A stretch of 64,000 bases of DNA from Cyanidioschyzon merolae (taxonomy: Eukaryota): NCBI GenBank assembly GCA_000091205.1, contig AP006501.2; one strand, written 5' to 3'. Under the pieces are notes generated by a model. It was not told the origin of the DNA and did no database searches. It was given only the letters and a program-made list of their open reading frames with translations. This document shows, in pieces, positions 1 to 54,538 of this stretch; the first letter of the stretch is position 1, and the number at the start of each line of letters is the position of its first letter. Both the position numbers and the translations under genes were made by a program.

Positions 1-19
1 CTGACTGTGTCGTCTTCGT

Positions 20-310
20 CCCTTTTTTCCGGCTTTAAACACCCCGATCGCTCCTCTCCCTCCGTTCCGGGTGTCAGCAGTCCGAGAATATTGATGACAA
101 CCCGTAAGTCTCAATTTCACAGCTCCCGGATGTTTTTGCCGCGTGCCAGGCGATGTGTTTATCGCAACGCGGGCCTATGCGTGAAAATCATAGACTACAA
201 CCGGAAGTGGTGTAATTGAGACTTAACTGTTTTCATTAATATTCTCGGACTGCTGACACCCGGAACGGAGGGAAAAGAATGTACAGCACGTCAAAAGCCG
301 GCGAAAAAGA
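20..310. repeat. Long imperfect palindrome / hairpin (MITE-like or hairpin-RNA locus). Perfect 36-bp arms at 57-92 and 238-273; further matching patches at 22-38/291-308 and 104-117/214-228
   Basis: Read directly: revcomp of 57-92 (tccctccgttccgggtgtcagcagtccgagaatatt) equals 238-273 exactly. Outer and inner patches also pair. Centre is near position 165. Confidence 0.8.
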
Positions 311-857
311 GTCGATCAGCAAGCAATCACGGAAATATCCCGCAATGGCTAGTGCTCATAACAGAGTGCTAATACCCAAATTTTAGAGTAGCCGCTTTCA
401 CTCGCGAACTCTGTCGGCATTGATGAAATATGTCCATAATCCAAACAAAAAGGATATTTTAATGCGAGAAGCTTTCGTAACTCTTTCGCTCTAGCCGTGA
501 CTCCAGCGTAGAGATCTTCCACCATCACTACTGAGGTTGGAAACGAAGGTGCACTCGGGGTTAGGCGACGGGATCGTTCCGGCTTTCGAGTTCGAGTACA
601 CTTGTAGGCCGGGCTCTCAGAAGTTACTTCGCAAAGGCGATCGGCAATAACATCTGGGCAGCTTTCGAGTCCAGCTGCTTCCTTCAAGTTCTTTTGGGAC
701 GGAGAATCTTTTACGTTAACTAAGGGTGTCCGATCGCGCGATTGATATCATTTTGTGCAGTGCTTCTCTCCAAAGTACGGCCGCCAGAAACAGAGGCGCA
801 TCAGTACGATCCAGCAACCCGCTTTCGGGGTATTTGGTAAGAGACGGCTTCTCCTGA

Positions 858-3800
858 ATGACGCACGCTCAACAAACCACTGGTACCGTTCTATCCGAGT
901 CGGAAACCCGACACCTGACAGAAACGCTTCTTCAGATTCTGGAGCCGCATCTTCAATCCTTCAACAGTGCAATAACGCAGGGCCTGCAGCAGGTGCTCCA
1001 CGATATCGAGCCACTTATCCTTGAAGGAACCGTTCAGCAAGCAGCTGACCACGTGTCCAAGGAACGACTTGAGGTCTGGTTTGAAGACCTCCGCCTTCAA
1101 AAGCCGCGTCTGCCCAGGGCTCGCGCGTTGCAGTCTACAGGCAACCTCAGAGCGCGCGGCTTTGCAGATGAACTCGAACTGGGTCTAGATCCTTCAGCGA
1201 TACTCCCGCACCAGTGTCGCGCCCTGCAGTCGTCGTATACAGGCTCGCTAAGCGTCGTTCTCTGCTGGCGAGCGACGCGCATCTCGCACGGCTGTTACCG
1301 GAAAGACAGCACGCTATGTAATACAGCGCTCTGGACAAACGGCTCCTACGCGGAAGATGTTTATCGCAGCGAACGGCATCTGGGCGAGGTTCCCATACTA
1401 GTGGGATCCAAGTTGTGCCACTTAGACGGACTGAGTCCAAACGAGCGCGTTGCACTTCACGAAGAGGAGTACGATTACGGTGGCTACTTCATCGTGAATG
1501 GTGTCGAAAAGCTGCTGCGAATGGTGATTATGCCGCGAGCCAACCATGTGATGGTCATAGCGCGTGATGCAAACGTCCGACGTGGAGAGCACTTCACTCG
1601 CTTCAGTGCAATGATTCGCTGTCGACGCGCTGACCGAGTTCGAGTTGTTACCAATCATCTCCACTACCTTCAAACTGGTCTTCTTAGGCTTCGATTTTCC
1701 GTCAAACGCCAAGAATACTTGCTACCGTTAGGGCTTGTGCTGAAAGCCCTTTACGATCTGGCTGATCGGGAGCTATTTTTGCTGCTCACAATGCCAAGTG
1801 GATGCTGCGGAACTAACGCAGATGAAAACCTCCGCTATATCCGCGAGCGAGCGCTCATGACGGTTCGTGAGCTGCATGTACTAACTGGTGGTGAGGGTAC
1901 CCAGCACGCAGCGCTGTCTTACTTGGGTGCTCGTTTCCGTTGCCTGTTTCCAGAGTACCTGTCTTCTGACGATTCCGATGAGCGCTGTGGCGCGTTTATT
2001 TTGCGTCGATATGTGCTCATTCACCTCGACGATCCACTTCAAAAACTAGAGCTCCTCGCCTATATGTCGCGGAAGCTTTTGCATTATATGACTGGCTGTC
2101 TCGCAGAGGACGATCCAGATTCGCTAGCGAACCAGGAGCTCCTCTTGCCCGGACAGCTTTGGCTGCTTTTCCTCCAGGAGAAGCTCCAAGACGCCCTGTT
2201 CGCGCTACGGGATGAAATTTCCCGGCAGTTGACTCAGCGAGCCAATCAGGGAAGCTTACTAGACCCAGATTTTGTCCGCAAATGTGTAAGCAAACCTCGC
2301 AGTGGTATCAGAGTAGGCGAAAGGATGTTGCACCTGCTATCCACGGGAACAGCGTCCCTGCGGGATGGTGCAGAGTTGCTACAGACGTCGGGTTACAGCA
2401 TCATAGCGGATCGGATCAACTTCCAACGCTTCCTTTCCCACTTCTACAGCGTCCATCGAGGGCAGTACTTTTTGAATCTGCGCACGTCGGAGTCTCGCAA
2501 ACTCAAGCCGGAGACTTGGGGCTTCATCTGTCCGGTGCACACACCCGATGGAGCACCCTGTGGAATTCTCAATCATCTCACGCGAATGTGCCGCGTCGTC
2601 GCGGATCAACAACAGGTACTGCAGGAGCAGAAGCGAATCGAATGGATCTTGGAGACGCTGCCACTGGAGCATCCTCTCGCTCACAACGATGCACTGCTTA
2701 TGCCACCGGCGAATGCAAGACCAGTACTGGTGGATGGTCGGATTCGAGGCTATGTGCATGGAGATGTACCGCTGGGGAAGCTTTTGCGTCAGCAAAAACT
2801 CGAGCATTTCCCCCAAACAGAAATTGTGGATGTGGAGATCCCGCGTCTCTTCCCGAGCGTCATGGTGTTCTCGACACCGTCACGGCTCATGCGCTCAGTG
2901 TGGAATATGCCGCAAGCTGGCATAGAATGGATAGGCACCATGGAGCAACTTTTCATGCCCGTTGACCTGTGCAAGTCGCAGTCGATGTCTCGTGCTGGAA
3001 ACGCAGCCATTCATCGTGAGCTGAGCGCAACGAACATTTTCAGTCTACTGGCCTCGTTTATTCCCTTCAGCAACATGAATCAATCACCGCGAAATATCTA
3101 CCAGTGCCAGATGGGCAAACAAGCCATGGGCGTTCCCTTTCACGATTGGGATCGGAGGTTCGACACCAAGTCCTACCGATTACTGACGCCCCAGCAACCT
3201 TTGGTGCAGAATCGCTCTGAGGCCCAAGCCGGTTGGTCCAAGGTCTTCGGATCGAGCTTCAATGCAGTAGTCGCTGTGATCTCATACACTGGTTACGATA
3301 TGGAGGACGGTATGGTGATCAACCGAGCGAGTCTGGATAGGGGTCTCGCCCACGGAGCGATCTACGGCTGCGAATTCGTGGATCTGGATCAGCTCAATGT
3401 CGCAAAGGATGCCCGGTTCAGCCGACTGCCAGCTGTAGGCGAGCGCATGACACCCGGCTCGGTGCTCTATAGTATTCAGGGCCGGAGACCTCATCTTTAT
3501 CGGAATAGTGAGACGAGTTATGTCGACGCTGTGCTCCTCGCCGAGAATCAACGGCGCGTTGCTATCCGGACCCGGACGCCTCGGCGACCCGTCATCGGGG
3601 ACAAGTTTGCCTCTCGACATGGCCAGAAAGGGGTGCTGTCTGCAATCTGGCCCGCTGAGGATATGCCGTACACGAGCGACGGGATCGTTCCGGATATTCT
3701 CTTCAATCCGAATGGCTTTCCGTCGCGGATGACCATCGGTATGATTGTGGAGTCTATCGCAGGGAAAGCTGCAGCCGTTCACGGCGCTGTGCCAATTGAC

Positions 3801-4385
3801 GCGAGTGCTTTTGAACGAGAAACGGAGGACGCAAGTGATCGCAGTAACGAGCCACCGCACGACTTCTTTGGAAGATTGTTGCTTAATACCGGATACACGT
3901 ACCACGGAACAGAAACGATGTACAACGGTTACACGGGCGAGCCGTTTGTTGTCCAAATATTCATCGGCGTGATTGCCTGGCAGCGACTTCGTCACCATAT
4001 TGCAGACAAGTTTCAGGTGCGAACTGAGGGTATTGTTCACCAGACACTCCGACAACCGCTGCGAGGCCGAAAGCGAGGTGGCGCTATTCGGCTCGGTGAG
4101 ATGGAGCGTGATGCGTTGCTTGCCAGTGGGGCTGCCTACACCCTCCAGGATCGGTTACAGAGCTGTTCAGACTTGCACACTGTATACGTTAGCGCTCTCG
4201 ACGGATCGCTACTCGCACCCATCGCAGCTCCGAACGAACGTCTGGGGGCTACCTCGCGGATCTCGGTCAAGTCCCGGACGAACACCCGCTCCCCAGTCGT
4301 TCGCGTGCACATGCCGTACGCTTTCAAGTATCTTGTTTACGAACTAGCAGCGATGAATATTAGGGTATCGCTTCCCGTTAAGTGA
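858..4385 (+). CDS. RPA2: DNA-directed RNA polymerase I second-largest subunit (A135/RPA2), intronless 1175 aa
   Basis: Motifs GDKFASRHGQKGV, SPRNIYQCQMGKQAMG, FIVNGVEKLLRMVIMPRANH and AVVAVISYTGYDMED align closely with yeast Rpa135 rather than the Pol II or Pol III paralogues. Confidence 0.92.
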   Translation: MTHAQQTTGTVLSESETRHLTETLLQILEPHLQSFNSAITQGLQQVLHDIEPLILEGTVQQAADHVSKERLEVWFEDLRLQKPRLPRARALQSTGNLRARGFADELELGLDPSAILPHQCRALQSSYTGSLSVVLCWRATRISHGCYRKDSTLCNTALWTNGSYAEDVYRSERHLGEVPILVGSKLCHLDGLSPNERVALHEEEYDYGGYFIVNGVEKLLRMVIMPRANHVMVIARDANVRRGEHFTRFSAMIRCRRADRVRVVTNHLHYLQTGLLRLRFSVKRQEYLLPLGLVLKALYDLADRELFLLLTMPSGCCGTNADENLRYIRERALMTVRELHVLTGGEGTQHAALSYLGARFRCLFPEYLSSDDSDERCGAFILRRYVLIHLDDPLQKLELLAYMSRKLLHYMTGCLAEDDPDSLANQELLLPGQLWLLFLQEKLQDALFALRDEISRQLTQRANQGSLLDPDFVRKCVSKPRSGIRVGERMLHLLSTGTASLRDGAELLQTSGYSIIADRINFQRFLSHFYSVHRGQYFLNLRTSESRKLKPETWGFICPVHTPDGAPCGILNHLTRMCRVVADQQQVLQEQKRIEWILETLPLEHPLAHNDALLMPPANARPVLVDGRIRGYVHGDVPLGKLLRQQKLEHFPQTEIVDVEIPRLFPSVMVFSTPSRLMRSVWNMPQAGIEWIGTMEQLFMPVDLCKSQSMSRAGNAAIHRELSATNIFSLLASFIPFSNMNQSPRNIYQCQMGKQAMGVPFHDWDRRFDTKSYRLLTPQQPLVQNRSEAQAGWSKVFGSSFNAVVAVISYTGYDMEDGMVINRASLDRGLAHGAIYGCEFVDLDQLNVAKDARFSRLPAVGERMTPGSVLYSIQGRRPHLYRNSETSYVDAVLLAENQRRVAIRTRTPRRPVIGDKFASRHGQKGVLSAIWPAEDMPYTSDGIVPDILFNPNGFPSRMTIGMIVESIAGKAAAVHGAVPIDASAFERETEDASDRSNEPPHDFFGRLLLNTGYTYHGTETMYNGYTGEPFVVQIFIGVIAWQRLRHHIADKFQVRTEGIVHQTLRQPLRGRKRGGAIRLGEMERDALLASGAAYTLQDRLQSCSDLHTVYVSALDGSLLAPIAAPNERLGATSRISVKSRTNTRSPVVRVHMPYAFKYLVYELAAMNIRVSLPVK

Positions 4386-4752: not shown

Positions 4753-6636
4753 CTAAAGCAGCGCGATAAGTTCGCATGCTCTTGCTCGATACGCTTCTGG
4801 CGGGCGCTTCCTTTGCATTTTTTGGGCCACGAGTTCAAATGCGGCAGATTCGCTCATGGAGCCTAGATACTGTCGAGCGAGAAGAAGAAGCTCGCGATCC
4901 TCCTGCGGCGAAAATGGTTCCCACATCAGCTCCTGACAGCGCTCGGTCTGAGCGTGTCGGGCTTCTGTACCGTCCGTCCGTGGGCGTTCCGTTACGTGAC
5001 GGCTGTCGTGAACAACAACTGGAGCTGGCGTTCGCTGCAACCCCTCGCCCGACGCCTGACGTAAAGATGCCTCTTGACGTCGGCGCCTTCGACGAAGTTC
5101 CTTGCGAGCCCTGATGGAAACGCGTCTCCAAACGCGCTCGAGTAGAACCTTATCACGACCCGGAAGGAGGAAGGCTTGGATTGCATCCCAACACTCACCA
5201 TAGGTCATCACGCCGTGACGCAGCAATTCTATTTCCTGTACCGACAGCGGCTGCTGTGCCTTCAACTTCAAGGTTTTGATAGGATTTGCGGGGGCATCCC
5301 GGCGAGTCAATAGTCGATAGCGACCGACGCATTCTTCGAGGTTCCTGTGCGGTAGATAATCGTCGATGTGCTCCTGCCACATAACGCCGTGCCTGCTCAA
5401 ACACCGCTCCAAGAGCGTATCCTCGGCCTCAGTCCAGAATAGTTCTGCATCGGCGCTGCTAGCCAGAGCTCGTAAAATATTCGGATCCGACTCGATATCG
5501 ACGCCGTATGCTAAACGGTATTCTGGTAAAATCATGCTTGGATGGCTCTCGAGGACGGCATAGGCACGTTTTGCCTCTACTGCTGTTACGAGGCCATCCG
5601 GATTCGATAATGCCGGTTTGACAAGCAGCTGCTCGATTTGTTCCAGCAAATCAAGGGGCATCGCGTCGAAAAACGTTCGCTCGATACCACCCAGCGCTCT
5701 GCGGTACTCGCGGGCGACGTCCCGCTTTCGCCGCAAGTCATCAAGCATCATCCAAGCTGCTTCCCGAGCACGTTGGCGATGAACAACATGTTCAGGCGAT
5801 AGGTCAATATTCGCGCGACGTTGCGAAGAAATCAACAGAATGTGAAGAAGAAGCTGCACGTGAATGTGGAGTTGCTTCGAGAGCTCTCTTTCTTGCTCCG
5901 GTTTGAAGAGCTTGAACTTGAGCATCTGGAAAAGCCGTTCGCGTTCACATGAAGCGTTTCCGACCGACGGCGATTCCCGGTGCACTCGTGGCCGTCTTGG
6001 CGTTGCTTCAGTAAAAGCGCGGTGCGGCGTTGTCGTCGACCGAAAACTTTCTGCGCTCTCTTTCATTTCATTTCCTGGAAGCGTTCGCTGGCAGTCCTCT
6101 GCAACCAATTGGTAGAGTTCTTCAGAGCTGATGCGTGCGCCTGTGTCTGCGCGGTATTCTTCGTTGGGTTCAGAGTTCTCAAAGTCGACCTGTCTGAGTT
6201 CGAAGTCCCCATCATCCTCGAAAAGCAGCTCATCTAGTGCAGCCGTAGCAGAAGGAGCCAGCAGTGACGCACAAAACTTTTGGAAAAGTGCCTCGTCGTT
6301 ATCAGCGGTCTCCGCGGAGACAGCACCAGCGCTGCGTTCGCTTTGGACACCTCCCGCCAGAGAAAATGACGTTCCAGAGCGCTCCATAGATGTCATTCGC
6401 CTAGTTCCCTGCGAGGCATCGAACCTTTGATACCGTTCCTGCTTCTGATCTCGCCGCGCTCGCTCAATCGAGTCTGGAACACCTCCCAAAGAGCGTGGTG
6501 CATTTTGCGCTGCGGAAGGCAGTTTTTCGTCCCGCTCCGAACAAGTTGCGCTCGTCGATTCTACTTCATCGCTACTATCTGTCAGCACGTCGTGTTCAAA
6601 AACGACGCCAACTTGATAAATCCTATCCCTGGACAT
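4753..6636 (-). CDS. Myb/SANT-repeat DNA-binding protein (three or more Myb-like repeats), acidic N-terminal region
   Basis: Tryptophan-spaced repeats: WTEAEDTLLERCLSRHGVMWQEHI, LSVQEIELLRHGVMTYGECWDAIQ and WEPFSPQEDRELLL. A long ORF on the strand opposite RPA2. Confidence 0.6.
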   Translation of the reverse strand: MSRDRIYQVGVVFEHDVLTDSSDEVESTSATCSERDEKLPSAAQNAPRSLGGVPDSIERARRDQKQERYQRFDASQGTRRMTSMERSGTSFSLAGGVQSERSAGAVSAETADNDEALFQKFCASLLAPSATAALDELLFEDDGDFELRQVDFENSEPNEEYRADTGARISSEELYQLVAEDCQRTLPGNEMKESAESFRSTTTPHRAFTEATPRRPRVHRESPSVGNASCERERLFQMLKFKLFKPEQERELSKQLHIHVQLLLHILLISSQRRANIDLSPEHVVHRQRAREAAWMMLDDLRRKRDVAREYRRALGGIERTFFDAMPLDLLEQIEQLLVKPALSNPDGLVTAVEAKRAYAVLESHPSMILPEYRLAYGVDIESDPNILRALASSADAELFWTEAEDTLLERCLSRHGVMWQEHIDDYLPHRNLEECVGRYRLLTRRDAPANPIKTLKLKAQQPLSVQEIELLRHGVMTYGECWDAIQAFLLPGRDKVLLERVWRRVSIRARKELRRRRRRQEASLRQASGEGLQRTPAPVVVHDSRHVTERPRTDGTEARHAQTERCQELMWEPFSPQEDRELLLLARQYLGSMSESAAFELVAQKMQRKRPPEAYRARACELIALL

Positions 6637-19540: not shown

Positions 19541-20399
19541 AACTCAGGCCAGCAGCCCTGTCGAGAGCCAAACGTCAGGTCTTCCCAAGCACAGCCTGTC
19601 CCAGAGGTAGCGTCCTCCAAAGGAGAACAACAGTTGGATTCGAGCTCCGTCCGAGACCGATTAACTCTCTAGATTGTACATACCGCTGCGAACGGCGCTA
19701 TCATGGATTCCGTCACGCGCGTCTGGGCCGCGATGGAAGCGAATTTCGCGAGGGCGCGATTTTTCTTTAATCATTGACGAAATGTTTACCTGGGCCAGCG
19801 TTCTCCGATTATGCGCATTTTTCTTTTCTTACTTTTTTTGTGTTATTTTTCAGTGCGCGGTGAAGTATCCACCAAATGCCCTACCTCCAAGTTACATCAC
19901 CTATACTTATTCTCGGATATTCTGGTCGTTTCATACGTCCTATCGTGTGCCGAGCCTGCGGCATGCGACCGCAATGGCGCCAATAGCGCCGGTGCAGTCG
20001 CTGCACGGAGACAGAACGGCGTTGGCGAACTGCGAGGGCGCGATGGGGACTTCCTGTACTTCACCTCAACTGTATTCCATCCTATGTGAATGTTACCATA
20101 TGCTTTTTCGCAGTTTTATAGCATATGCGTTCGAATCGCGTACATTTGAAGGGACAAAAAAACCAAGGGACGCTATGGACATGGAATTCGGGGATCCTGG
20201 AGGCCCGGTGTCGCTGGCTGCCGGAGAAAAGGGAAAATAGTAACAAGCCCAGGGAACGGTAGAAGACGAAGAAGCAGAAGCAGAAGGCCAGACGTCAGAA
20301 GCGACTCGAAAAATGACGCAACTACGAGAATTTCGTGGAAGCCTTTCTTCGACGCAATATCAAGGATCCCTAAAAGCAAAAGAAGCAAGAGGCCAACAG

Positions 20400-22220
20400 A
20401 AACAGTGTCGCGTCCCACTTCATGAGTGTTTGTAACGCTTCCCTAGAAAAGATGCATTTTGTGAGGGACATGTACCACGACGTAGCGGATACCAAAACAG
20501 TCAAAGTTCCGGAAGAATTTTTCACGGTTACCTCCATCTGGCACCTGATGGCTGCCACAGGGGAAATGTCGGGGAGGAACGATCCAGTGCACGCCTTCTA
20601 CGAAAACTATCCCTTCTGCAGCATCAACGGTACTCGATGCAGGGCTGACTCGGGTATTTACACTTACGAGGCGATAGAGTATCTCACGAACCTGGGGAAC
20701 CAAACAATCGTAAACCACGAACGGTTCATCAAAGGCTGCATCTTTGCGCTCTACTCGGCCTGTCTCATAGGGTGGGTGACCATCATCGATAGCTCGACTA
20801 GAGATCGCCAGTATGAATAAGAGATCGAATTCTTCGACGAGGAGACATCACACAGGAGCACTACTGAAGGTTCTGTGATCCGTGCGGCTATTAAAGAGCA
20901 ACGTGGGGCCTCGAGGCTAGCGGATCAGCAGAAAACGTATCAGATATGAAAAAACATGAAAAGGAATTTTATCCCCTATCCTGCGCTATGTCGTATTTTT
21001 GAACAGAGAACTCGAGCGCAGGGCCAAAACGGAGCAGGGTGTGGAAGAAAATGAGGAGTCGATGGGGCGGCGGACTGCGCCTTTGGGGAAGCGCTTCAAA
21101 ATCGTACTGTTATGCAACATCAAGTCATATTTTGTGAAAATCGACCCCAGAGTCCTTTACGGCACACTGAAGGAGGTAAGTTCGGATTTCGATGTAAGCA
21201 ACTTGGAATTTACGGGCGAAAACCTGGAGACTCATTGGAAGCACATCTTCGATTTCAAACGTCTCAAAATGAGCAAGAAAAAGGTATTCAAGGAGATGAT
21301 CGAAAGCGATGGAGTATCCATACGCGTTGACTACAGGTGCTTGAAGGTGGATCGTCCTGTTTTGTCCTCGATATCGCGGGTGACGAAGCGTGACGAAATG
21401 AATGATGCGGACCCTACGACGTAGGAGGTGCAGGCGAAGGACCTCGTCGCCGGCGTGGACCGTGGGAACACGAATATCATGACCATTGCTGTTTCCATGC
21501 ATGGGAAAAATGCAAGGGCTCCCATCGCACAGGTGCAGCAAATGGAGAGCATAACCTCTGGACTTGTGACGACGCGGTTAACGACTTTTGCAATGAAACC
21601 CGCAGCGTATGGCACATTTACCTGAGCGGTTATACTCAGACCAGTGGATTTTGGAGTACATGTGCCAGCAACCCATTTTGTTATTGTTTCTTTTGCTCCC
21701 AGGCATTCAAAGAAAGCAATGGATCCCTTAGATTCGATAATTGTGGAGAAGAGACCTCAAACTGTCACTTTTAGCCTGCGAGCAATGATCTGACTCGTTC
21801 AATTCGGTCATTCTGCCATCAGCAGGTGGATGGATCACCTTTATCGTCGTCTTTGACTTGAACTTCGTGCATGAAAGGCAAAACTTAACAAACTCCCTCA
21901 CATAGACAGAATCGGCATCGATCCGTTCCACTCCATACACTCTCGCAGAAATTCTGCCGAAGAACCCAAATCGTGTGGAGTCCCCAGTCCTTTGATGCGA
22001 GGGATGATGAAGAGACACGAATGGACGAAGGAAAAAGCATGCTTCTTTGGGAGTTAATTGCGTGTTTGACGGGCCATTACCGACTCTGTACCGATGTAGA
22101 AGGCTTTTTCCAGAAGCGATATGTTTCGGCCTCTTACGATGAGACCTCTTTCGGAAGAAATGCGAAAGATGTTGATGAATACTTCACGAAGAAGGACAAC
22201 AAATGTTGTTCGTAATGAAG
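20400..22220 (+). mobile_element. Degenerate TnpB/Fanzor-like element, copy 1. N-terminal region, RuvC-I and zinc-finger segments are present; the RuvC-III tail appears absent
   Basis: Homologous at nt and aa level to 46066-47940. GKRFKIVLLCNIKSYFV matches GKRFKVVPLCNIKSYFV; LVAGVDRGNTNIMTIAVS matches VVGADPGDTNIIAIAVS (RuvC-I GxDxG). 21973-22215 (ACLTGHYRLC..KRYVSASYDE) matches copy 2's AGCWASKKWC..RRFATIPIDE. Confidence 0.65.
20999..21625 (+). pseudogene. Fanzor/TnpB-like nuclease ORF fragments of copy 1, interrupted by an in-frame TAG at ~21422
   Basis: ORFs 20999-21424 and 21428-21625 are in the same frame, separated by a stop; the RuvC-I motif lies in the second piece. Confidence 0.6.
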
Positions 22221-35054: not shown

Positions 35055-38000
35055 TCAAGTATATGCATCGAACTTCATAGATCGTGGTTCTAGAGAAATC
35101 TTACCACAAAATGAACCGCTTCGTTTCCTCTTAGTTTTCATTTTGCGAAACGCTTTTCCTTGGTATGCGGAGAGTTCCGCCCAGGTTTTCTGGGCATGCT
35201 GATCTCTCGGGGTGGGATCAATGAGGGTAACATCCGAAGAAAAGAAACGTTCCTCTTGAATCCTCCGGAAAGGTGTGTTAGCCTGGGGGACTCTCTTCGC
35301 TCTGTCGGATTTTGGGGCAGCCTGTGGGTGAGGATTCAGCTTGGAGCTAGAGGCACCAGCCACGTCGCACTGACTTTTGTCACCAGAGCCTTCTACAATG
35401 ATGCTTCCTGCTGAGTCATCTCTGGGGTCGGACAAAATGGTTTGCGTGGATGACTGACTTTTGCGCCCCATCGCAGACACGGGTTTCGTTACCCGAGGCG
35501 CCATATCAGTAGATTGCGCTAGCATTCCTGGATGGGAATCAATTTGTGATGCACTGAAAGCGCTCCCTATTTGTTCGTTTGAACTGCAAGCGCGCAGTCC
35601 ATCAAATGCGATCCCATTTCCACCGTCTTCCATCGCTGCGCGCGGCTTGTATCTAGGATCCGCATCTTTGCTAGAGTGAAGTCTCTCTGGTTTCCTGAAA
35701 CCTGCGCAAACGTTTGACTTTTGAGCTTTCGTATGGCAATTCTCAGTTAAGGAATGCCAGCTTGAACAAGGAGATCCGTGCTCTCTACGCGTTCGTTTGT
35801 CTAAAGGTTTCCCCGTATCTCTTTTCTGATGATTTTGGATCTGATTTGCACAGACTGGCAAGTCTCCTCCGTCTTGCGCATGAAACCGATATTGCTCTTC
35901 TAAAGAATCCCATTTCATCGTTTTGTTCTGGCCGACCATGAGGCTAGAGTTATGCGGTTTCGACGTATTCGAGGGTCCACACTGGACGTCGTCACTTATA
36001 CATGATTCCGTAACAGCAGCCGGAGCTGAATCCGTGCCTATTAGTACTTTTCGCTGGGAAGTACGCTCAGTGCCTTCGGCAGGGTTCTGTGATTGAGCAA
36101 CGTTCCCTTTCCGAGAGCTCGCATCCCTAGAAGCTCTGCCATTCGCGATTTCACTTCCAGCATGGTTTGTCCGAACCCCGCGATTCCGAGGGGCCTTGCC
36201 CTCACCTTCAGGGATGTGTTGCGTTGCATGTCGTCCTAATGGATTCCTTCCATGGAGCTCTCCATGAAAATATTGCGACCCGCTGGACGCAGCATTCCCT
36301 GTTCTCTGTTCCTGCACTTTCCCGGAAGCAAGATCTTCAGCATGGTAGCTGTTCATTTGCATTTTCATCTCACGCGATTCTAATGATGGACTTATTCCAT
36401 CAGTATTACCATTCGCGAGAGATCCATTGATTTCATGATAATGCCTAGATGGCTCGCATGAGCTGCCTCCAGTGGAATGCACTGATATGTTATCATTTCT
36501 GTCACAATGAGATGCTATCAGCTGATGGTCTGAGGTGTTGGGAAGGGAATCCTGGAATCGTTCCTCTATCCTGCCAGGAGCCGTGCGACTTGCTGATATC
36601 TTTCCAGGCGGAACTGGTAAATTCGGCTCGCTGCTGGTTCCAAAGTCACTCATATTCATACGCGCTGAGCATCTACTGCAGCCGCTGCTCGATGACGACT
36701 CAGAAGTCGACTCCGAAGTGGAGGACGCAACACCTGCCGTCCTCGGTGGCACCTTTCGCGCCTCCGTAGCCTCTAGTGAGCTCGATGAGCTCGATGAGCT
36801 CGACGATGTTGCCGTCGACGCTAGCGCACGCTTCGCTGAGGCCCGATGTGGCGGTTGGACGCTCCCAGCGCGCCTTGTGACTCGCTCGCCGTCGCTCGAT
36901 GACGACTCAGAAGTCGACTCCGAAGTGGAGGACGCAACACCTGCCGTCCTCGGTGGCACCTTTCGCGCCTCCGTAGCCTCTAGTGAGCTCGATGAGCTCG
37001 ATGAGCTCGACGATGTTGCCGTCGACGCTAGCGCACGCTTCGCTGAGGCCCGATGTGGCGGTTGGACGCTCCCAGCGCGCCTTGTGACTCGCTCGCCGTC
37101 GCTCGATGACGACTCAGAAGTCGATTCCGAAGTGGAGGACGCAACACCTGCCGTCCTCGGTGGCACCTTCCGCGCTTCCGTAGCCTCTAGTGAGCTCGAT
37201 GAGCTCGATGAGCTCGACGATGTTGCCGTCGACGCTAGCGCACGCTTCGCTGAGGCCCGATGTGGCGGTTGGACGCTCCCAGCGCGTCTTGTGACTCGCT
37301 CGCCGTCGCTCGACGACGACTCAGAAGTCGACTCCGAAGTGGAGGACGCAACACCTGCCGTCCTCGGTGGCACCTTTCGCGCCTCCGTAGCCTCTAGTGA
37401 GCTCGATGAGCTCGATGAGCTCGACGATGTTGCCGTCGACGCTAGCGCACGCTTCGCTGAGGCCCGATGTGGCGGTTGGACGCTCCCAGCGCGCCTTGTG
37501 ACTCGCTCGCCGTCGCTCGATGACGACTCAGAAGTCGACTCCGAAGTGGAGGACGCAACACCTGCCGTCCTCGGTGGCACCTTTCGCGCTTCCGTAGCCT
37601 CTAGTGAGCTCGATGAGCTCGATGAGCTCGACGATGTTGCCGTCGACGCTAGCGCACGCTTCGCTGAGGCCCGATGTGGCGGTTGGACGCTCCCAGCGCG
37701 CCTTGTGACTCGCTCGCCGTCGCTCGATGACGACTCAGAAGTCGACTCCGAAGTGGAGGACGCAACACCTGCCGTCCTCGGTGGCACCTTTCGCGCCTCC
37801 GTAGCCTCTAGTGAGCTCGATGAGCTCGATGAGCTCGACGATGTTGCCGTCGACGCTAGCGCACGCTTCGCTGAGGCCCGATGTGGCGGTTGGACGCTCC
37901 CAGCGCGCCTTGTGACTCGCTCGCCGTCGCTCGATGACGACTCAGAAGTCGATTCCGAAGTGGAGGACGCAACACCTGCCGTCCTCGGTGGCACCTTTCG

Positions 38001-39527
38001 CGCCTCCGTAGCCTCTAGTGAGCTCGATGAGCTCGATGAGCTCGACGATGTTGCCGTCGACGCTAGCGCACGCATCGCTGAGGCCCGATGTGGCGGTTGG
38101 ACGCTCCCAGCGCGCCTTGTGACTCGCTCGCCGTCGCTCGATGACGACTCAGAAGTCGATTCCGAAGTGGAGGACGCAACACCTGCCGTCCTCGGCGGCA
38201 CCTTCCGCGCTTCCGCAGCCTCTAGTGAGCTCGATGAGCTCGATGAGCTCGACGATGTTGCCGTCGACGCTAGCGCACGCTTCGCTGAGGCCCGATGTGG
38301 CGGTTGGACGCTCCCAGCGCGCCTTGTGACTCGCTCGCCGTCGCTCGACGACGACTCAGAGGTCGACTCCGAAGTGGAGGACGCAACACCTGCCGTCCTC
38401 GGTGGCACCTTCCGCGCTTCCGTAGCCTCTAGTGAGCTCGATGAGCTCGACGATGTTGCCGTCGACGCTAGCGCACGCTTCGCTGAGGCCCGATGTGGCG
38501 GTTGGACGCTCCCAGCGCGCCTTGTGACTCGCTCGCTGTCGCTCGATGACGACTCAGAAGTCGACTCCGAAGTGGAGGACGCAACACCTGCCGTCCTCGG
38601 TGGCACCTTCCGCGCTTCCGCAGCCTCTAGTGAGCTCGATGAGCTCGATGAGCTCGACGATGTTGCCGTCGACGCTAGCGCACGCTTCGCTGAGGCCCGA
38701 TGTGGCGGTTGGACGCTCCCAGCGCGCCTTGTGACTCGCTCGCCGTCGCTCGACGACGACTCAGAGGTCGACTCCACCAGGACCACAGATTCAGGAAGCA
38801 ATTTCAGAGAAGATGATGAGAATACATCTGGTTGGGGTCGTTCATTATCTAAGACGCTGCCTTTTTTCCGGGGAAACGCCGACGCGTAGAATCGCGACTC
38901 GGCTGAGCCGACAGCACCGGAGTCTGCTCTCGCGCGCCTCTCACGCTCTTGTGGAGCTGACTCGTTTTTTGAGATCGCCACTGCTTCCGAGACAGCGCCC
39001 GGCCCACCAGAATCTGGAATAGACTGAGCAGGGGCCCTTACTGAAACCTTTTCACTTCGCCTTCGACCGGTTAGGGCCGCACCTGCGGCTGACAAACTCA
39101 ATACAGGAGACACGCTCCATTTCGCATCTGTTTCAGAGGCCCATTTGTATGTCCGAGCGTCGATCCCACTTTCTTCCAGTAATCTTGCGTCTAACTCTTC
39201 TATTGCAAAGCTCAAGCGCTTTGATCTCTGTATCGAAAGTCCAGCAGTATGCGAACTGCTCGAGTCGCTTGAGTTGTCTGCAATTTCAGAGCTTGATTCG
39301 GCTCTATGAATAGTCGCATCACATTCGCAGCGTGCACGCTTCTTTGCAAGCTTTTCCGCTGATTCATGCGCCAAAGATTCAGCTGTCCGTTTTAAACCTA
39401 CACTGTGAAGAAACTGAAACAGCGCACCGAGAAGGCCACTGTTTCGCAAACGACCTCCATGCAGTCGGGAATCGCCAGCTTCCTCTTCTGATAGGTGCTT
39501 GTCCCCTTGAGAACATTTTGATTCCAT
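35055..39527 (-). CDS. LisH-domain protein with a long Ser-rich region containing ~10 tandem 69-aa repeats
   Basis: N-terminal LisH-like motif LLGALFQFLHSVGLKRTAESLAHES. Repeats read ...ESTSESSSSDGERVTRRAGSVQPPHRASAKRALASTATSSSSSSSSSSLEATEARKVPPRTAGVASSTS. Unique flanks of >500 aa support this strand as coding. Confidence 0.75.
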   Translation of the reverse strand: MESKCSQGDKHLSEEEAGDSRLHGGRLRNSGLLGALFQFLHSVGLKRTAESLAHESAEKLAKKRARCECDATIHRAESSSEIADNSSDSSSSHTAGLSIQRSKRLSFAIEELDARLLEESGIDARTYKWASETDAKWSVSPVLSLSAAGAALTGRRRSEKVSVRAPAQSIPDSGGPGAVSEAVAISKNESAPQERERRARADSGAVGSAESRFYASAFPRKKGSVLDNERPQPDVFSSSSLKLLPESVVLVESTSESSSSDGERVTRRAGSVQPPHRASAKRALASTATSSSSSSSSSSLEAAEARKVPPRTAGVASSTSESTSESSSSDSERVTRRAGSVQPPHRASAKRALASTATSSSSSSSLEATEARKVPPRTAGVASSTSESTSESSSSDGERVTRRAGSVQPPHRASAKRALASTATSSSSSSSSSSLEAAEARKVPPRTAGVASSTSESTSESSSSDGERVTRRAGSVQPPHRASAMRALASTATSSSSSSSSSSLEATEARKVPPRTAGVASSTSESTSESSSSDGERVTRRAGSVQPPHRASAKRALASTATSSSSSSSSSSLEATEARKVPPRTAGVASSTSESTSESSSSDGERVTRRAGSVQPPHRASAKRALASTATSSSSSSSSSSLEATEARKVPPRTAGVASSTSESTSESSSSDGERVTRRAGSVQPPHRASAKRALASTATSSSSSSSSSSLEATEARKVPPRTAGVASSTSESTSESSSSDGERVTRRAGSVQPPHRASAKRALASTATSSSSSSSSSSLEATEARKVPPRTAGVASSTSESTSESSSSDGERVTRRAGSVQPPHRASAKRALASTATSSSSSSSSSSLEATEARKVPPRTAGVASSTSESTSESSSSDGERVTRRAGSVQPPHRASAKRALASTATSSSSSSSSSSLEATEARKVPPRTAGVASSTSESTSESSSSSGCSRCSARMNMSDFGTSSEPNLPVPPGKISASRTAPGRIEERFQDSLPNTSDHQLIASHCDRNDNISVHSTGGSSCEPSRHYHEINGSLANGNTDGISPSLESREMKMQMNSYHAEDLASGKVQEQRTGNAASSGSQYFHGELHGRNPLGRHATQHIPEGEGKAPRNRGVRTNHAGSEIANGRASRDASSRKGNVAQSQNPAEGTERTSQRKVLIGTDSAPAAVTESCISDDVQCGPSNTSKPHNSSLMVGQNKTMKWDSLEEQYRFHAQDGGDLPVCANQIQNHQKRDTGKPLDKRTRREHGSPCSSWHSLTENCHTKAQKSNVCAGFRKPERLHSSKDADPRYKPRAAMEDGGNGIAFDGLRACSSNEQIGSAFSASQIDSHPGMLAQSTDMAPRVTKPVSAMGRKSQSSTQTILSDPRDDSAGSIIVEGSGDKSQCDVAGASSSKLNPHPQAAPKSDRAKRVPQANTPFRRIQEERFFSSDVTLIDPTPRDQHAQKTWAELSAYQGKAFRKMKTKRKRSGSFCGKISLEPRSMKFDAYT
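36687..38775. repeat. Tandem minisatellite, 207-bp unit x ~10 (one 198-bp variant), inside the LisH protein gene
   Basis: Unit starts at 36687, 36894, 37101, 37308, 37515 and so on, with >95% identity. 207 = 3 x 69, so both strands stay open. Confidence 0.95.
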
Positions 39528-46065: not shown

Positions 46066-47940
46066 TTGCTCTCCGTTCTTCACGTGCAGTATTCTCAAAT
46101 CACGCGTTCTTCATGTTTTAGTCTTTCTTCTTCAAGGTACTTCGGGGGTTCTGCAATGTGCCCCGATGGATTGGTGAGGAACAACATGAGATGTCGACCT
46201 TTGACGACTTGTTCACAAGGTCATGCCGAAAGTCAGCTGAACCTTCCACGCCAAGTAATAAATTCTGTACGAAAGACATGTCCTTCTCTATTTGCAAATT
46301 ACGAAGAAACCGTATTTTACAACAGCACAATGGTTCCCAGAGAATATGCTCCCAGCGGCTTTCGTCTCTTGTGCTTTAATGGAAACGGGTCTTGGACCCG
46401 GGCCTCTCTCGAAAAGGCATTTGGGCCATCGTCACTGCCATCACCAACGATCGGCAGCATGAACAGGCGAAAGAATTTTTCGACAAGAAGACATCACGCA
46501 GGGGAAAGAATGAAGCTTATGTGATCGGTTCGGCTATTCAAGAGTACCGTGCGGTCTTGGGGCTAGCGAATCTCGCAGAAAAGTCATCAGATATGAAAAA
46601 AAGGTGATGAAATGCGCTGTCCCCTCATCCTGCGCTATTTCTTGTTCTTTGACCGAGAACTCGAAGACAAGGCCGGAAAGGAGCTGGGTGTAGGAAAAAA
46701 AGAAGAGTCGGAGAGACAGAAGGCTGCCCTAATGGGGAAGCGCTTCAAGGTCGTTCCGTTATGCAACATCAAGTCATACTTTGTGACAATCAACTCCAGA
46801 GTCTATTTCGGCATCATGAGGGATATCTATGAGGAGTTCGGCGTAAACAGGGAGGAGTTCAGCGGCGAAAATCGGGACACGTACCGGAAGAGTATCTTCT
46901 ATTTAAAAAGTGTCAAAACGAGCAAGCAAAAGAAATTCACATGGATGGTCGAAAGCGATGAAGTATCCATGTGTGTACACTTTCGGCGCTTGAAGGCGAA
47001 TCGTCCTGTTCCGTCCTCGGCTTCGCCCCTGAGGAAGCATGCAGAAAAGAAAGAGGCGGATCCTGCTACGCAGAAAGTGCAGGATAACGACTTTGTCGTT
47101 GGCGCGGACCCAGGGGACACGAATATAATAGCCATCGCAGTATCGAAGCGTATGGTAGATGTGACTGACGGCAACTTACGTCATAAAGACATGCGTCTCT
47201 TAAAGTTCTCGAGAACGAGATATCACCGAGAATCGGGAATAATGAGTGCGAGGGAAAAAATTTAGGAAGAGAATTCAGGAGTGAAAGAGCGCCTGGAAGC
47301 TATGAGCGAGGTGACTAGCCGAAAAGCGGACTTTCGAGCTTTTCTGAAATTCATGGAAGTTCGCGTTGCTCTTTGGGAGGCGCTGTGGAAAGAGTATACA
47401 AAGCCACGATGGGCTCGTTTGTGAATGAGCTTGTACTGTGTGAAGCAGCGGGCATTCGCCAACTTTTTCAATGAGTTGAGTGCCTTGAAAGAGGACGAGA
47501 GTCAAAGGCACGTAGTAGCATTCGGAGCAGGGTGCTGGGCATCGAAAAAATGGTGTACACCAGCTCCAACGACGAGAACGTACAAGGAGCGTGCACGGCG
47601 TTTTGCCACAATACCAATAGATGAGTTCCAATCGTCCAGTATTCACCATGAGTTGGGATGTACACTTCAGACGGTCGAGATGGATTAGTGTCAGCGGCGC
47701 GGTGACGATATAAAACAGTACGGAGCGCTGACGGAAGAGCAAATGGAAAGGACGGCGAAAGTTCGAGGATTGCTTACGTTAGTGAGTACAACCACCGGGA
47801 GGAAACGTGTGAAGTTTGTGAACAGGGAATTTAACGCCGCCATCAATATAAGGAGATGTGCGGTGATGGAAATAAGACCTCCAGAGTTGACAAGAGTGAA
47901 TTTTTGGGAGAACCTCTCAAATTATACGAGAAGAAATTGA
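46066..47940 (+). mobile_element. TnpB/Fanzor-like RuvC nuclease gene, copy 2. Full-length architecture but broken by in-frame stops and one frameshift
   Basis: Same-frame ORFs 46066-46524, 46612-47265, 47425-47688 and 47743-47940. RuvC-I VVGADPGDTNIIAIAV, Cys/His cluster GCWASKKWC..HHELGC, and a C-terminal VNREFNAAINIRR (RuvC-III signature with D to E). Confidence 0.7.
46612..47265 (+). pseudogene. Largest intact segment of Fanzor/TnpB-like copy 2 (N-terminal/WED-like region plus RuvC-I)
   Basis: 217-aa ORF ending at a stop. The sequence continues in another frame (EENSGVKERLEAMSEVTSRKADFRAFLKFMEVRVALWEALWKEYTKPRWARL), which indicates a frameshift. Confidence 0.6.
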
Positions 47941-52960: not shown

Positions 52961-53314
52961 TCAATAAATGTATTCACGCGCAGACGATTCCCAGCCTTTT
53001 TCGACCGGCAGACTGCTGTCGGCCGGTCGAAAAATGTACACTTCGGGTCTGCGAGGCTTCCACACGAAGTTAGATCGCCTCAGCTCTGCGGCCCTCGTCT
53101 CCAGCACCGCAAATCGTCTGATATTAATAGCAGTGCTGAAGTCTCGGTTCACAAACTCCATGCGTTTGTTGCCGCTGGTTGAACTCACTAGTCTAAGGAT
53201 TCCTCGAACTCGAGCGCTCAGTGCCATTTGGTGCTCTGTCAACTCTGCGTGATTTTCTATCGCCGAGCCGCTCCACCGGCTCCTCTCCATCTCGTTCTTC
53301 TGAAGTATACGCAC
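52961..53314 (-). pseudogene. TnpB/Fanzor-like C-terminal fragment, copy 3, carrying the RuvC-III motif
   Basis: LSARVRGILRLVSSTSGNKRMEFVNRDFSTAINIRRFAV aligns with copy 2's TAKVRGLLTLVSTTTGRKRVKFVNREFNAAINIRRCAV. A TGA stop lies immediately upstream, so it is a fragment. Confidence 0.65.
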
Positions 53315-54538
53315 AGTTCATCCAAAGGGTTTTTTTCCTGAAACGAACGTACTTCCTCCCGTCCTTAAGTCAGGAGTTTCCCGGAGGATCGAAAGACTTG
53401 GAAAGTAAAGACAAAATGTGTCCCGATGTGTTACCGTGTGCTGAAAGCTTCAGCGATTCGCCCACTAGAACGATCACTACGTTTCACGATAGAAAACACT
53501 CCTTCGATGAGCTTTAACGACCGAGCGCATGCAGAGATAGAAAGCAGCTCTTCCCCGATTGCATTGGTAAAAGCTCAAACGCAAGAAGAATGGTGAAATA
53601 CCACGTTTTCCAATAGAATGACGTCGCTGGACGTCAGGAGAAAGTCTTCAATGATTCGCCAAAGTGGTCGGTGCTGTTGTATGAGCCTTTTCGATGAGCG
53701 AAACTGAGGCCGCAAAATGAATCTACTGCAGTTAGAACAGATAATGATGTCCTCGTTCTCATCGAGCTCGATCGTACATACAATGCGATTCCTCTCCGCA
53801 AATACTCATACACGCTTCGAGCGTATCGTTTGAAGTAAGTCATATTGACTGAAGAAACAAACCGACGTCCCCGTGCTTCATACCGATCGCGACGTGTCAG
53901 GACTTGTGTTCGAGCGATTCGGCGGAAGATGGCCATGCATGCATTTGGACTTTTTTTGCGACTGGATCTCAGTATTTTGATGACCACATATACAGTCTGG
54001 TGTGAAACAGGAACACCAGTAGTAAATCGTATCGACGCCTTTTGCTTTCCCTAGAGTGATCAACGGATCGTCTTCTAGCGTTGAGAGCAATCATGCTTTA
54101 AGAATATCGATTTTGGCACGAAATGCTTTCAATCTTTTCTTTCAGTGTTCCACCACCATCTGTGTTCTCCGCTACGAATGAGCTGAAGGTAAATGCAGTC
54201 CTCGTTGCAATTTTCAGTAAATGATATATCTTGTAAGCAATTCGTCTGTGATCTATGCGGTACATTGATCTGTAATATCCATCTCCATCTAGACAACACA
54301 GCGGAGCCGAAACAGAATTGAGTTGAAAGCCGCTCGCGTACGGCACTGAGCGCCGCGCACGCAATTTCGGGATTCCTTGCGCGTTGCAGACCGCACTCTG
54401 CAGTTGAACGCGTTGAGGCCAGTGGACGCATTCATAGTGTCGAGTGCGTGGACGTATTGTTTGCATAAAAAGCGAGCTCTCTATGAGGTGTTTACGTAAG
54501 TCACTGCTAGATTTGTAGCTCCTGGACTCCTCTATTCG

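What the first reader, a model, noticed from the sequence alone, without database searches (positions are those of the whole stretch)
20..310. ~290-bp imperfect palindrome at the window start
- A perfect 36-bp inverted repeat (57-92 and 238-273) is nested inside further pairing blocks (22-38/291-308 and 104-117/214-228), so the whole segment folds into one long hairpin.
- It sits in a gene-free stretch upstream of RPA2.
- It could be a MITE, a hairpin-RNA or miRNA-like precursor as described in some algae, or a replication or regulatory element.
- The element may continue beyond the window start.
Basis: seen in the sequence. Interest (0 to 1): 0.5.

Follow-up and report, generated by a model that had tools for sequence, protein, structure and literature searches.

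The report
Single-copy degenerate palindrome upstream of RPA2
The long hairpin-forming repeat is real and larger than reported (about 458 bp, running 63 bp past the window start), but it is a one-off, species-specific inverted duplication between two genes of the red alga Cyanidioschyzon merolae, not a transposon family or a microRNA-type precursor, and most likely an ordinary relic of DNA repair.

Summary
The perfect 36-bp inverted repeat (57-92 / 238-273) and the nested blocks exist. With the left flank recovered from public contigs, the arms run from 63 bp left of the window start to 133, and from 197 to 394. They align over 198 columns at 73% identity with one 1-nt gap, around a 63-nt spacer. 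Either strand folds into one hairpin (z about -16 to -18). It is the only long inverted repeat in about 71 kb.

The organism is Cyanidioschyzon merolae 10D. The palindrome lies in the 1.1-kb spacer between a conserved 180-aa membrane-protein gene (minus strand, off-window) and RPA2 (ATG 858).

- It is identical in six independent assemblies, so it is not an artefact.
- It is absent from the syntenic spacer of two related cyanidiophytes.
- No second copy was found in any sequence I could reach.
- Published work reports no MITEs and no Dicer or Argonaute in this alga.
- The arms alone are unstructured and show no coding signal.
- The core motif does not recur nearby.

Best reading (about 45%): an old fold-back inverted duplication whose inner part is kept identical by conversion between the arms. 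A regulatory or hairpin-RNA role is not excluded. Interest is low.

The parts
1..133 (.). Left arm of the palindrome. It really starts 63 bp before the window start (window -63), so the full arm is 197 nt. It is C-rich on the + strand (52.8% G+C).
   Evidence: Gapped alignment of the left flank (from L003, identical to the window) against the reverse complement of the right side. Composition.
57..92 (.). Perfect 36-nt core, left copy (TCCCTCCGTTCCGGGTGTCAGCAGTCCGAGAATATT).
   Evidence: A perfect run this long has P = 2e-4 if the 53 non-matching columns (52 mismatches and one gap) were spread evenly.
104..117 (.). Inner conserved block, left copy (pairs with 214-228).
22..38 (.). Outer conserved block, left copy (CTTTTTTCCGGCTTT; pairs with 291-308). 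Its T-run (23-28) is one T shorter in one JGI contig.
134..196 (.). 63-nt spacer at the tip of the hairpin. It has small off-axis stems of its own.
   Evidence: spacer alone: z -1.2 and -1.8.
197..394 (.). Right arm, 198 nt, A-rich on the + strand (44.9% G+C).
238..273 (.). Perfect 36-nt core, right copy (reverse complement of 57-92).
214..228 (.). Inner conserved block, right copy.
291..308 (.). Outer conserved block, right copy.

Best explanation
The element is a single-copy, lineage-specific, degenerate palindrome. About 197 bp has been duplicated in inverted orientation around a 63-bp spacer. It lies in the 1.1-kb spacer between two divergently oriented genes of Cyanidioschyzon merolae: a conserved 180-aa membrane-protein gene on the minus strand, just left of the window, and RPA2 on the plus strand.

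Inferred origin: one fold-back or template-switch event during DNA repair or replication. A 3' end snaps back on its own strand and copies it, which produces an inverted duplication with a short unique centre.

Inferred history: the arms have since drifted apart, to about 65% identity in the outer 120 columns. The inner part (about 86%, including the perfect 36-bp run) has been kept alike by short-tract gene conversion between the arms, or by quasi-palindrome correction through intra-strand template switching. Such processes keep working only where the arms are still similar.

On this reading the element has no transposon or RNA-silencing role and probably no essential function. It persists because it sits in the tolerant middle of an intergenic spacer.

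Shown: the structure, its extent, its position, its absence in relatives and the uneven identity along the arms. Inferred: the mode of origin, the conversion and the lack of function.
For: - The structure is real and is identical in the reference and in six independent assemblies.
- It is the only long inverted repeat in about 71 kb of this genome, with none in 46 kb of two relatives.
- No second copy of any part was found in the window plus 5 kb. The core 20-mer is found only at this locus in the JGI scan, not in viral contigs, and only as a bare 20-nt chance match in a prokaryote.
- Gene order (ORC1-like, 180-aa gene, RPA2, Myb, SecE...) is the same in Cyanidiococcus (L001) and in a second relative (L002), but neither spacer holds a palindrome or any similarity to it. 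The element therefore looks like a local event in the C. merolae line.
- Identity is a mosaic: 145/198 overall, with a 36-nt perfect run that has P = 2e-4 under evenly spread mismatches. Conversion limited by divergence would produce this.
- Several checks for function found nothing. The arms alone are not structured (z -1.4 to +0.5). Mismatches show no codon periodicity (21/13/18). No Rfam family reaches its threshold. There is no tRNA. Core 10-12-mers are not enriched elsewhere in the window (5 against 7 expected). There is no coding or sequence similarity to the relatives' spacers.
- From my own knowledge, not tested here: C. merolae is highly proficient in homologous recombination, which makes conversion between arms plausible.
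Against: - Only one 1-nt gap in 198 aligned columns at 27% divergence is fewer indels than I would expect for free drift. This is a rough expectation with no local calibration.
- The 36-nt perfect core could equally reflect selection.
- There are 18 transitions that give G-U pairs in the minus-strand RNA against 7 in the plus-strand RNA, and the minus-strand fold is 35 kcal/mol more stable. That is what selection on a minus-strand hairpin RNA would give.
- Against that last point, transversions show the same excess of C in the left arm (9 against 2). The bias therefore looks compositional.
- No direct evidence for a fold-back origin or for conversion can be obtained from one genome.
- Uniqueness in the whole 16.5-Mb genome was not tested directly.
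Confidence: 0.45

Rival explanations
1. It is a symmetric cis-regulatory module. The two arms present the same DNA sequence in the same orientation relative to each of the two outward-pointing genes. The conserved blocks, above all the 36-bp core, are protein-binding sites of a shared bidirectional promoter, enhancer or boundary element.
For: - It lies in the spacer between divergently oriented genes, with ATGs at about -278 and at 858.
- It has islands of high identity (36/36, 12/12, about 15/17) separated by stretches near 45-50%, and almost no indels. This resembles footprints with fixed spacing.
- The core run has P = 2e-4 under even divergence.
Against: - The core is 335-370 bp from one ATG and 585-620 bp from the other, so the arrangement is not symmetric with respect to the genes.
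- Core 10-12-mers do not recur in other spacers of the 64-kb window.
- Nothing similar is found in the orthologous spacers of two relatives, whose spacer is only 284 bp in Cyanidiococcus.
- A 36-bp perfect stretch is far longer than a typical binding site.
- The only recognisable motif (E2F-like TTTGCCGC, 135-142) occurs at chance frequency in the window.
Confidence: 0.2
2. It is transcribed, most likely on the minus strand from the RPA2 side, into a long hairpin RNA of about 460 nt that acts without RNAi. For example, it could be an RNase III substrate that ends or destroys upstream antisense transcripts, or a structured regulatory RNA.
For: - The folds are very stable, and more so on the minus strand (-256 against -221 kcal/mol).
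- There are 18 against 7 transitions that preserve pairing as G-U on the minus strand.
- There is a near absence of indels between the arms.
Against: - C. merolae has no Dicer or Argonaute (PMC11376382).
- No Rfam family reaches its threshold; MIR5048 scores 43 bits against 160.
- Transversions show the same directional C excess (9 against 2), so the G-U bias is probably compositional.
- No orthologues are available to test covariation, and no transcript evidence was obtainable.
- The hairpin is absent in relatives.
Confidence: 0.12
3. It is a dead, solitary relic of a non-autonomous DNA transposon (MITE or foldback element) that inserted into the spacer in the C. merolae lineage.
For: - It has a small size, no coding capacity and a long inverted-repeat architecture.
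- It is present in C. merolae but not at the syntenic site in relatives.
- A 5-nt direct repeat ACTCG lies near both ends, at -70..-66 and 400-404.
Against: - No other copy was found in any reachable sequence.
- De novo searches found zero MITEs in this genome (PMC3964958).
- The ACTCG pair is not flush with the ends of the repeat. By my rough estimate a 5-mer match within the about 15-nt windows searched happens about one time in five by chance.
- Identity is highest inside the arms rather than at the termini, the reverse of transposase-bound ends.
- There are no tandem subrepeats in the arms.
Confidence: 0.08
4. It is a DNA-structural element, such as a cruciform-forming replication origin or a recombination hotspot.
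For: - The single-stranded DNA fold is -113 kcal/mol, z -11.9.
- It has an intergenic position of the kind where many eukaryotic origins lie (general knowledge).
Against: - The 63-nt spacer, 27% arm mismatch and a centre that is not A+T-rich (52% G+C) all disfavour cruciform extrusion from duplex DNA.
- No data on origins are available.
- It is unique rather than one of a class.
Confidence: 0.05

Closest known systems
Quasi-palindromes and inverted duplications made by fold-back (snap-back) synthesis or template switching, homogenised by conversion between arms
   Same: Single locus, an inverted duplication around a short unique centre, no coding capacity, and a mosaic of identical and diverged segments between the arms.
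   Different: The mechanism is inferred from the end product only. The element is old (about 27% arm divergence), and its spacer of 63 nt is longer than typical fresh fold-back events leave.
MITEs and foldback transposons
   Same: A few hundred bp, non-coding, inverted-repeat architecture, and lineage-specific presence at the site.
   Different: Single copy, no flush target-site duplication, termini less conserved than the interior, and a genome reported to have no MITEs.
Plant and algal long-hairpin small-RNA precursors (hpRNA loci and long MIR precursors such as Rfam MIR5048)
   Same: A long, nearly continuous hairpin of comparable length; weak structural match to RF04207 (43 bits).
   Different: The score is 117 bits below the family threshold with no sequence similarity, the host lacks Dicer and Argonaute, and there is no small-RNA evidence.
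Bidirectional promoters with mirrored elements
   Same: It lies between divergently oriented genes, and each arm faces its gene in the same orientation.
   Different: The distances to the two start codons are unequal, the motif does not recur, and there is no conservation in the orthologous spacers.

Membership tests
MITE (miniature inverted-repeat transposable element) | Several to many related copies dispersed in the genome | tested here: not met
   No other copy in the 64-kb window plus 5 kb. The core 20-mer occurs only at this locus in the JGI scan, which covers two samples holding this genome. A published de novo search found 0 MITEs in C. merolae (PMC3964958).
MITE (miniature inverted-repeat transposable element) | Target-site duplication directly flanking the terminal inverted repeats | tested here: not met
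   The best candidate is a 5-nt ACTCG that is not flush with the repeat ends; this is chance level by my rough estimate.
MITE (miniature inverted-repeat transposable element) | Terminal inverted repeats as the best-conserved part; small and non-coding | tested here: inconclusive
   It is small and non-coding (no codon periodicity). However, the outermost 40 columns are 75% identical while the interior core is 100%.
Foldback transposon | Long arms built of tandem subrepeats; multiple copies | tested here: not met
   No direct repeats above trivial 10-20-nt matches in 1-1500; single copy.
miRNA or hairpin-siRNA precursor | Host has Dicer-like and Argonaute proteins | tested here: not met
   From the literature: C. 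merolae lacks Argonaute and Dicer (PMC11376382). Not re-derived from the proteome here.
miRNA or hairpin-siRNA precursor | Transcribed, with discrete 20-24-nt small RNAs mapping to the stem | not testable with these tools
   No RNA data were accessible. Look-ups that might have given transcript contigs found nothing on record.
Rfam RF04207 (MIR5048) | Covariance-model score at or above the gathering threshold (160 bits) | tested here: not met
   43.4 bits. The match rests on hairpin shape alone.
Structured ncRNA gene pair (snoRNA, snRNA or tRNA copies head to head) | Each arm has its own significant fold or a family match | tested here: not met
   Arms alone give z -1.4 to +0.5. No Rfam hit and no tRNA.
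Local inverted duplication (quasi-palindrome) | Two arms alignable end to end in reverse complement at one locus, unique in the genome, absent at the orthologous site of relatives | tested here: met
   Arms -63..133 / 197..394, 145/198 identical. Unique in all reachable sequence. Absent in L001 and L002 despite conserved gene order.
Local inverted duplication (quasi-palindrome) | Origin by fold-back or template-switch synthesis; later conversion between arms | not testable with these tools
   It needs polymorphic intermediates or experimental evolution. The available strains are 99.9% identical and invariant in the element apart from a T-run length change.

The most novel reading that the evidence does not exclude
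The palindrome is a selected functional element of a minimal, RNAi-free eukaryote. One version is a roughly 460-nt minus-strand hairpin RNA handled by an RNase III-type enzyme to stop or destroy antisense transcription between RPA2 and its neighbour. The other is a palindromic DNA module that coordinates the two divergent promoters. In both, the 36-bp perfect core and the near absence of indels reflect purifying selection on pairing or on protein binding.
Probability: 0.1. Interest if true: 0.55.

Novelty: new member of a known kind. Interest (0 to 1): 0.2.

Why it matters
C. merolae is a model 'minimal' photosynthetic eukaryote. Its genome is very compact and repeat-poor, and it has no RNAi and no reported MITEs. 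A 458-bp palindrome in it is therefore a rarity: one in about 71 kb examined here.

If it is only a repair scar, it is a small datum on how inverted duplications arise and are homogenised in a recombination-proficient genome. It is also a caution for primer or targeting-construct design upstream of RPA2.

If the core were shown to be under selection, it would be a handy, genetically tractable case of a palindromic regulatory DNA or of RNAi-independent hairpin RNA. Nothing found here makes that likely.

Tried and rejected
- **Known RNA families.** Rfam had no hit in the whole window at gathering thresholds. A permissive search of the spacer found only MIR5048 at 43 bits against 160, rejected as a shape-only match.
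- **tRNA or permuted tRNA.** ARAGORN found none.
- **Two head-to-head ncRNA genes.** Each arm folded alone on both strands was not better than shuffles. UGAUGA at 92-97 has no matching box D or terminal stem (read by eye).
- **Hidden coding duplication.** Mismatches show no 3-nt periodicity. The ORF 349-687 (-) has no Pfam family. A tblastx comparison of the whole spacer against the relatives' spacers found nothing.
- **Recurrent regulatory motif.** Core k-mers are not enriched in the window. The E2F-like site occurs at chance frequency. The sigma-70-like hits simply mirror the palindrome and are irrelevant to a nuclear gene.
- **Foreign origin.** No hit in viral contigs. The single Mycobacterium hit is a bare 20-mer, about the number I expect by chance for a collection of that size.
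- **Constraint from polymorphism.** The available strains differ by only 0.02-0.1%. Zero SNPs in the element against four just to its right is not significant against my tally of the mean non-coding rate from the differences (about 1.9 per kb; expected about 0.8). The four are alleles private to the reference.
- **Transcript ends.** The reference RPA2 and the 58-aa ORF are not on record in the contig index.
- **Assembly artefact.** Rejected, because the same structure is present in six independent assemblies.

Full report
**1. Is it there?**

Yes. The sequence of window 1-1500 and the repeat finder show arms 23-133 and 197-307: 111 nt, 78% complementary, 63 nt apart. A 32-nt piece of the core occurs exactly twice in the 64-kb window, once per strand, against 0.00 expected from shuffles. 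The blocks 22-38/291-308 and 104-117/214-228 are also paired.

Window 1-330 folds as one hairpin, and no shuffle folds as well:

| Strand and molecule | Energy (kcal/mol) | z-score |
|---|---|---|
| + strand RNA | -164.7 | -16.0 |
| - strand RNA | -180.5 | -17.1 |
| DNA | -90.9 | -13.3 |

With a 12-nt seed and arms within 2 kb, this is the only inverted repeat of at least 25 nt in the whole window.

**2. Whose genome, and what lies to the left?**

ORF 858-4385 has the five Rpb2 domains. It is 100% identical to the RNA polymerase I second-largest subunit of Cyanidioschyzon merolae 10D, on a 1,282,939-bp record. The Myb-domain gene at 4753-6636 (-) is carried by many public contigs. Four of them (L003-L006) are 99.9% identical to the window and supply the sequence left of the window start.

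In window orientation the neighbours are:
- an ORC1-like gene (BAH + AAA, + strand) ending about 1.18 kb left of the window start;
- a 180-aa gene on the - strand at about -820..-278, which is real because its C-terminal 120 residues are 53% identical to the gene at the same place in Cyanidiococcus yangmingshanensis (E = 1e-38);
- RPA2, with its ATG at 858 on the + strand.

The palindrome therefore lies in the 1,136-bp spacer between two genes that point away from each other.

**3. True extent.**

I aligned the recovered left flank against the reverse complement of the right side. This extends the repeat to arms -63..133 and 197..394: 198 columns, 145 identical (73%), with a single 1-nt gap. 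The full element folds at -221.2 kcal/mol (+ strand RNA, z -16.5), -256.1 (- strand RNA, z -17.7) and -113.3 (DNA, z -11.9).

**4. Internal anatomy.**

Identity along the arms is a mosaic. It is about 75% in the outermost 40 columns and 45-50% in two stretches. It is 80% (16/20) over the 20 columns that hold the CTTTTT-CCGGCTTT block, and 38/40 around the core. If the 53 non-matching columns (52 mismatches and one gap) were spread evenly, a perfect run of 36 or more would occur with P = 2e-4. The core is therefore kept alike by something, either selection or conversion between the arms.

Mismatches show no codon periodicity (21/13/18). Each arm folded alone is no more stable than shuffles (z -1.4 to +0.5). 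So the arms are neither coding duplicates nor two structured RNA genes.

There are 18 transitions that would be G-U pairs in the minus-strand RNA against 7 in the plus-strand RNA. But transversions show the same excess of C in the left arm (9 against 2). The arms also differ in G+C (52.8% against 44.9%). I therefore read this bias as compositional rather than as selection on an RNA helix.

**5. Is it repeated anywhere?**

- A sensitive BLAST of the 458 bp against the window and 5 kb upstream finds only itself.
- The 20-nt centre of the core, scanned through the JGI metagenome collection, hits two contigs. Both are this same locus, and each carries both arms.
- There is no hit in viral contigs.
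- One hit among prokaryotic genomes is a bare 20-mer in a Mycobacterium MAG. That is about the number I expect by chance for a collection of that size.

One caveat applies. Two further JGI contigs that do carry the locus (L010, L011) were not returned by the scan. That collection therefore does not hold every sample, and a diverged copy would escape an exact 20-mer search. The published P-MITE survey found no MITEs in the C. merolae genome with two de novo programs (PMC3964958).

No flush target-site duplication exists. The best candidate is a 5-nt ACTCG that is offset from the repeat ends.

**6. Is it conserved?**

Gene order around the site is the same in Cyanidiococcus (L001) and in a second cyanidiophyte from a JGI metagenome (L002). 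Their RPA2 proteins are 68% and 72% identical to the C. merolae protein. Their spacers contain no comparable inverted repeat and no nucleotide or six-frame similarity to the palindrome. The Cyanidiococcus spacer is only 284 bp.

Within the species, the reference and six independent assemblies carry the element unchanged, apart from one T fewer in the T-run at 23-28 in one JGI contig. That rules out an assembly or cloning artefact. But overall diversity is only 0.02-0.1%, which is too low to say anything about constraint.

**7. Known RNA classes.**

No Rfam family reaches its threshold in the window, and there is no tRNA. In a permissive search the only match is the plant MIR5048 precursor at 43 bits against a gathering score of 160. 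The aligned positions show shared pairing but hardly any shared sequence. Any long hairpin would score like this. C. merolae lacks Argonaute and Dicer (PMC11376382, citing Casas-Mollano 2008 and Cerutti 2011). A canonical small-RNA precursor therefore has no machinery to act through.

**8. Regulatory motif?**

Core 10-12-mers are not enriched elsewhere in the window (5 hits against 7 expected for 10-mers, none for 11- or 12-mers). An E2F-like TTTGCCGC sits at 135-142, but that motif occurs at chance frequency (17 against 14.8). The cores are 335-370 bp and 585-620 bp from the two start codons, so the arrangement is not symmetric with respect to the genes.

**9. Verdict.**

The two concrete interpretations, MITE and miRNA-like precursor, fail their defining tests.

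The explanation I think most likely (about 45%) is an old, local fold-back or template-switch inverted duplication in a tolerant spot of the spacer. Its inner part is still homogenised by conversion between the arms, or by quasi-palindrome correction. This accounts for uniqueness, lineage specificity, lack of any coding, RNA-family or motif signal, and the mosaic identity.

It does not easily account for the near absence of indels. The perfect core could equally be selected. I therefore keep four rivals:

| Rival | Probability |
|---|---|
| Mirrored cis-regulatory module | about 20% |
| RNAi-independent minus-strand hairpin RNA | about 12% |
| Solitary transposon relic | about 8% |
| Origin or cruciform element | about 5% |

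These can be separated by a whole-genome BLAST, strand-specific RNA and TSS mapping, and targeted deletion. All are feasible in this organism but not with the tools here.

As a kind of feature it is a new instance of a known class. Interest is low.

Noticed in passing
window 36687-38775: A 207-bp tandem repeat, 10.1 copies at 97% identity. It lies inside a 1490-aa ORF on the minus strand (35055-39527) and coincides with the G+C peak of the window (0.57-0.59). Each unit is 69 codons.
   Followed up: partly
window 19757-20030 and about 5.1-5.4 kb left of the window start (L007 11747-12019): A 274-bp stretch is repeated at 88% identity in inverted orientation about 25 kb apart. ORFs over it have no Pfam family. 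A dispersed repeat is unusual in this repeat-poor genome.
   Followed up: partly
window 20803-21495 vs 46449-47144; also window 53034-54247 vs about 3.9-5.1 kb left of the window start: Diverged paralogous stretches (74% and 68% nucleotide identity over 0.7 and 1.2 kb), probably duplicated genes.
   Followed up: no
window 417, 526, 740, 780, 1170, 1171, 1350, 6424: At these positions the reference sequence differs from all six metagenome-derived copies of the locus. This gives RPA2 E105I and A165T in every non-reference copy. They are either alleles private to strain 10D or errors in the reference.
   Followed up: partly
L003 16915-17457 (window about -820..-278, minus strand): A conserved 180-aa protein with a hydrophobic C-terminal half. 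It has no Pfam family and is 53% identical to the Cyanidiococcus gene at the syntenic place. It is the palindrome's left neighbour.
   Followed up: partly
L010, L011 (JGI contigs Ga0209012_1001286 and Ga0123519_10001402): These JGI contigs contain the core 20-mer, but the metagenome-contig scan did not return them. That scan is therefore not exhaustive over JGI samples, which limits negative conclusions drawn from it.
   Followed up: yes
window 349-687 (-): A 112-aa ORF (TTG start; gene callers take a 58-aa part) overlaps the outer end of the right arm. It has no Pfam family, and a six-frame comparison of the spacer with the relatives' spacers found nothing. It is probably not a gene.
   Followed up: yes
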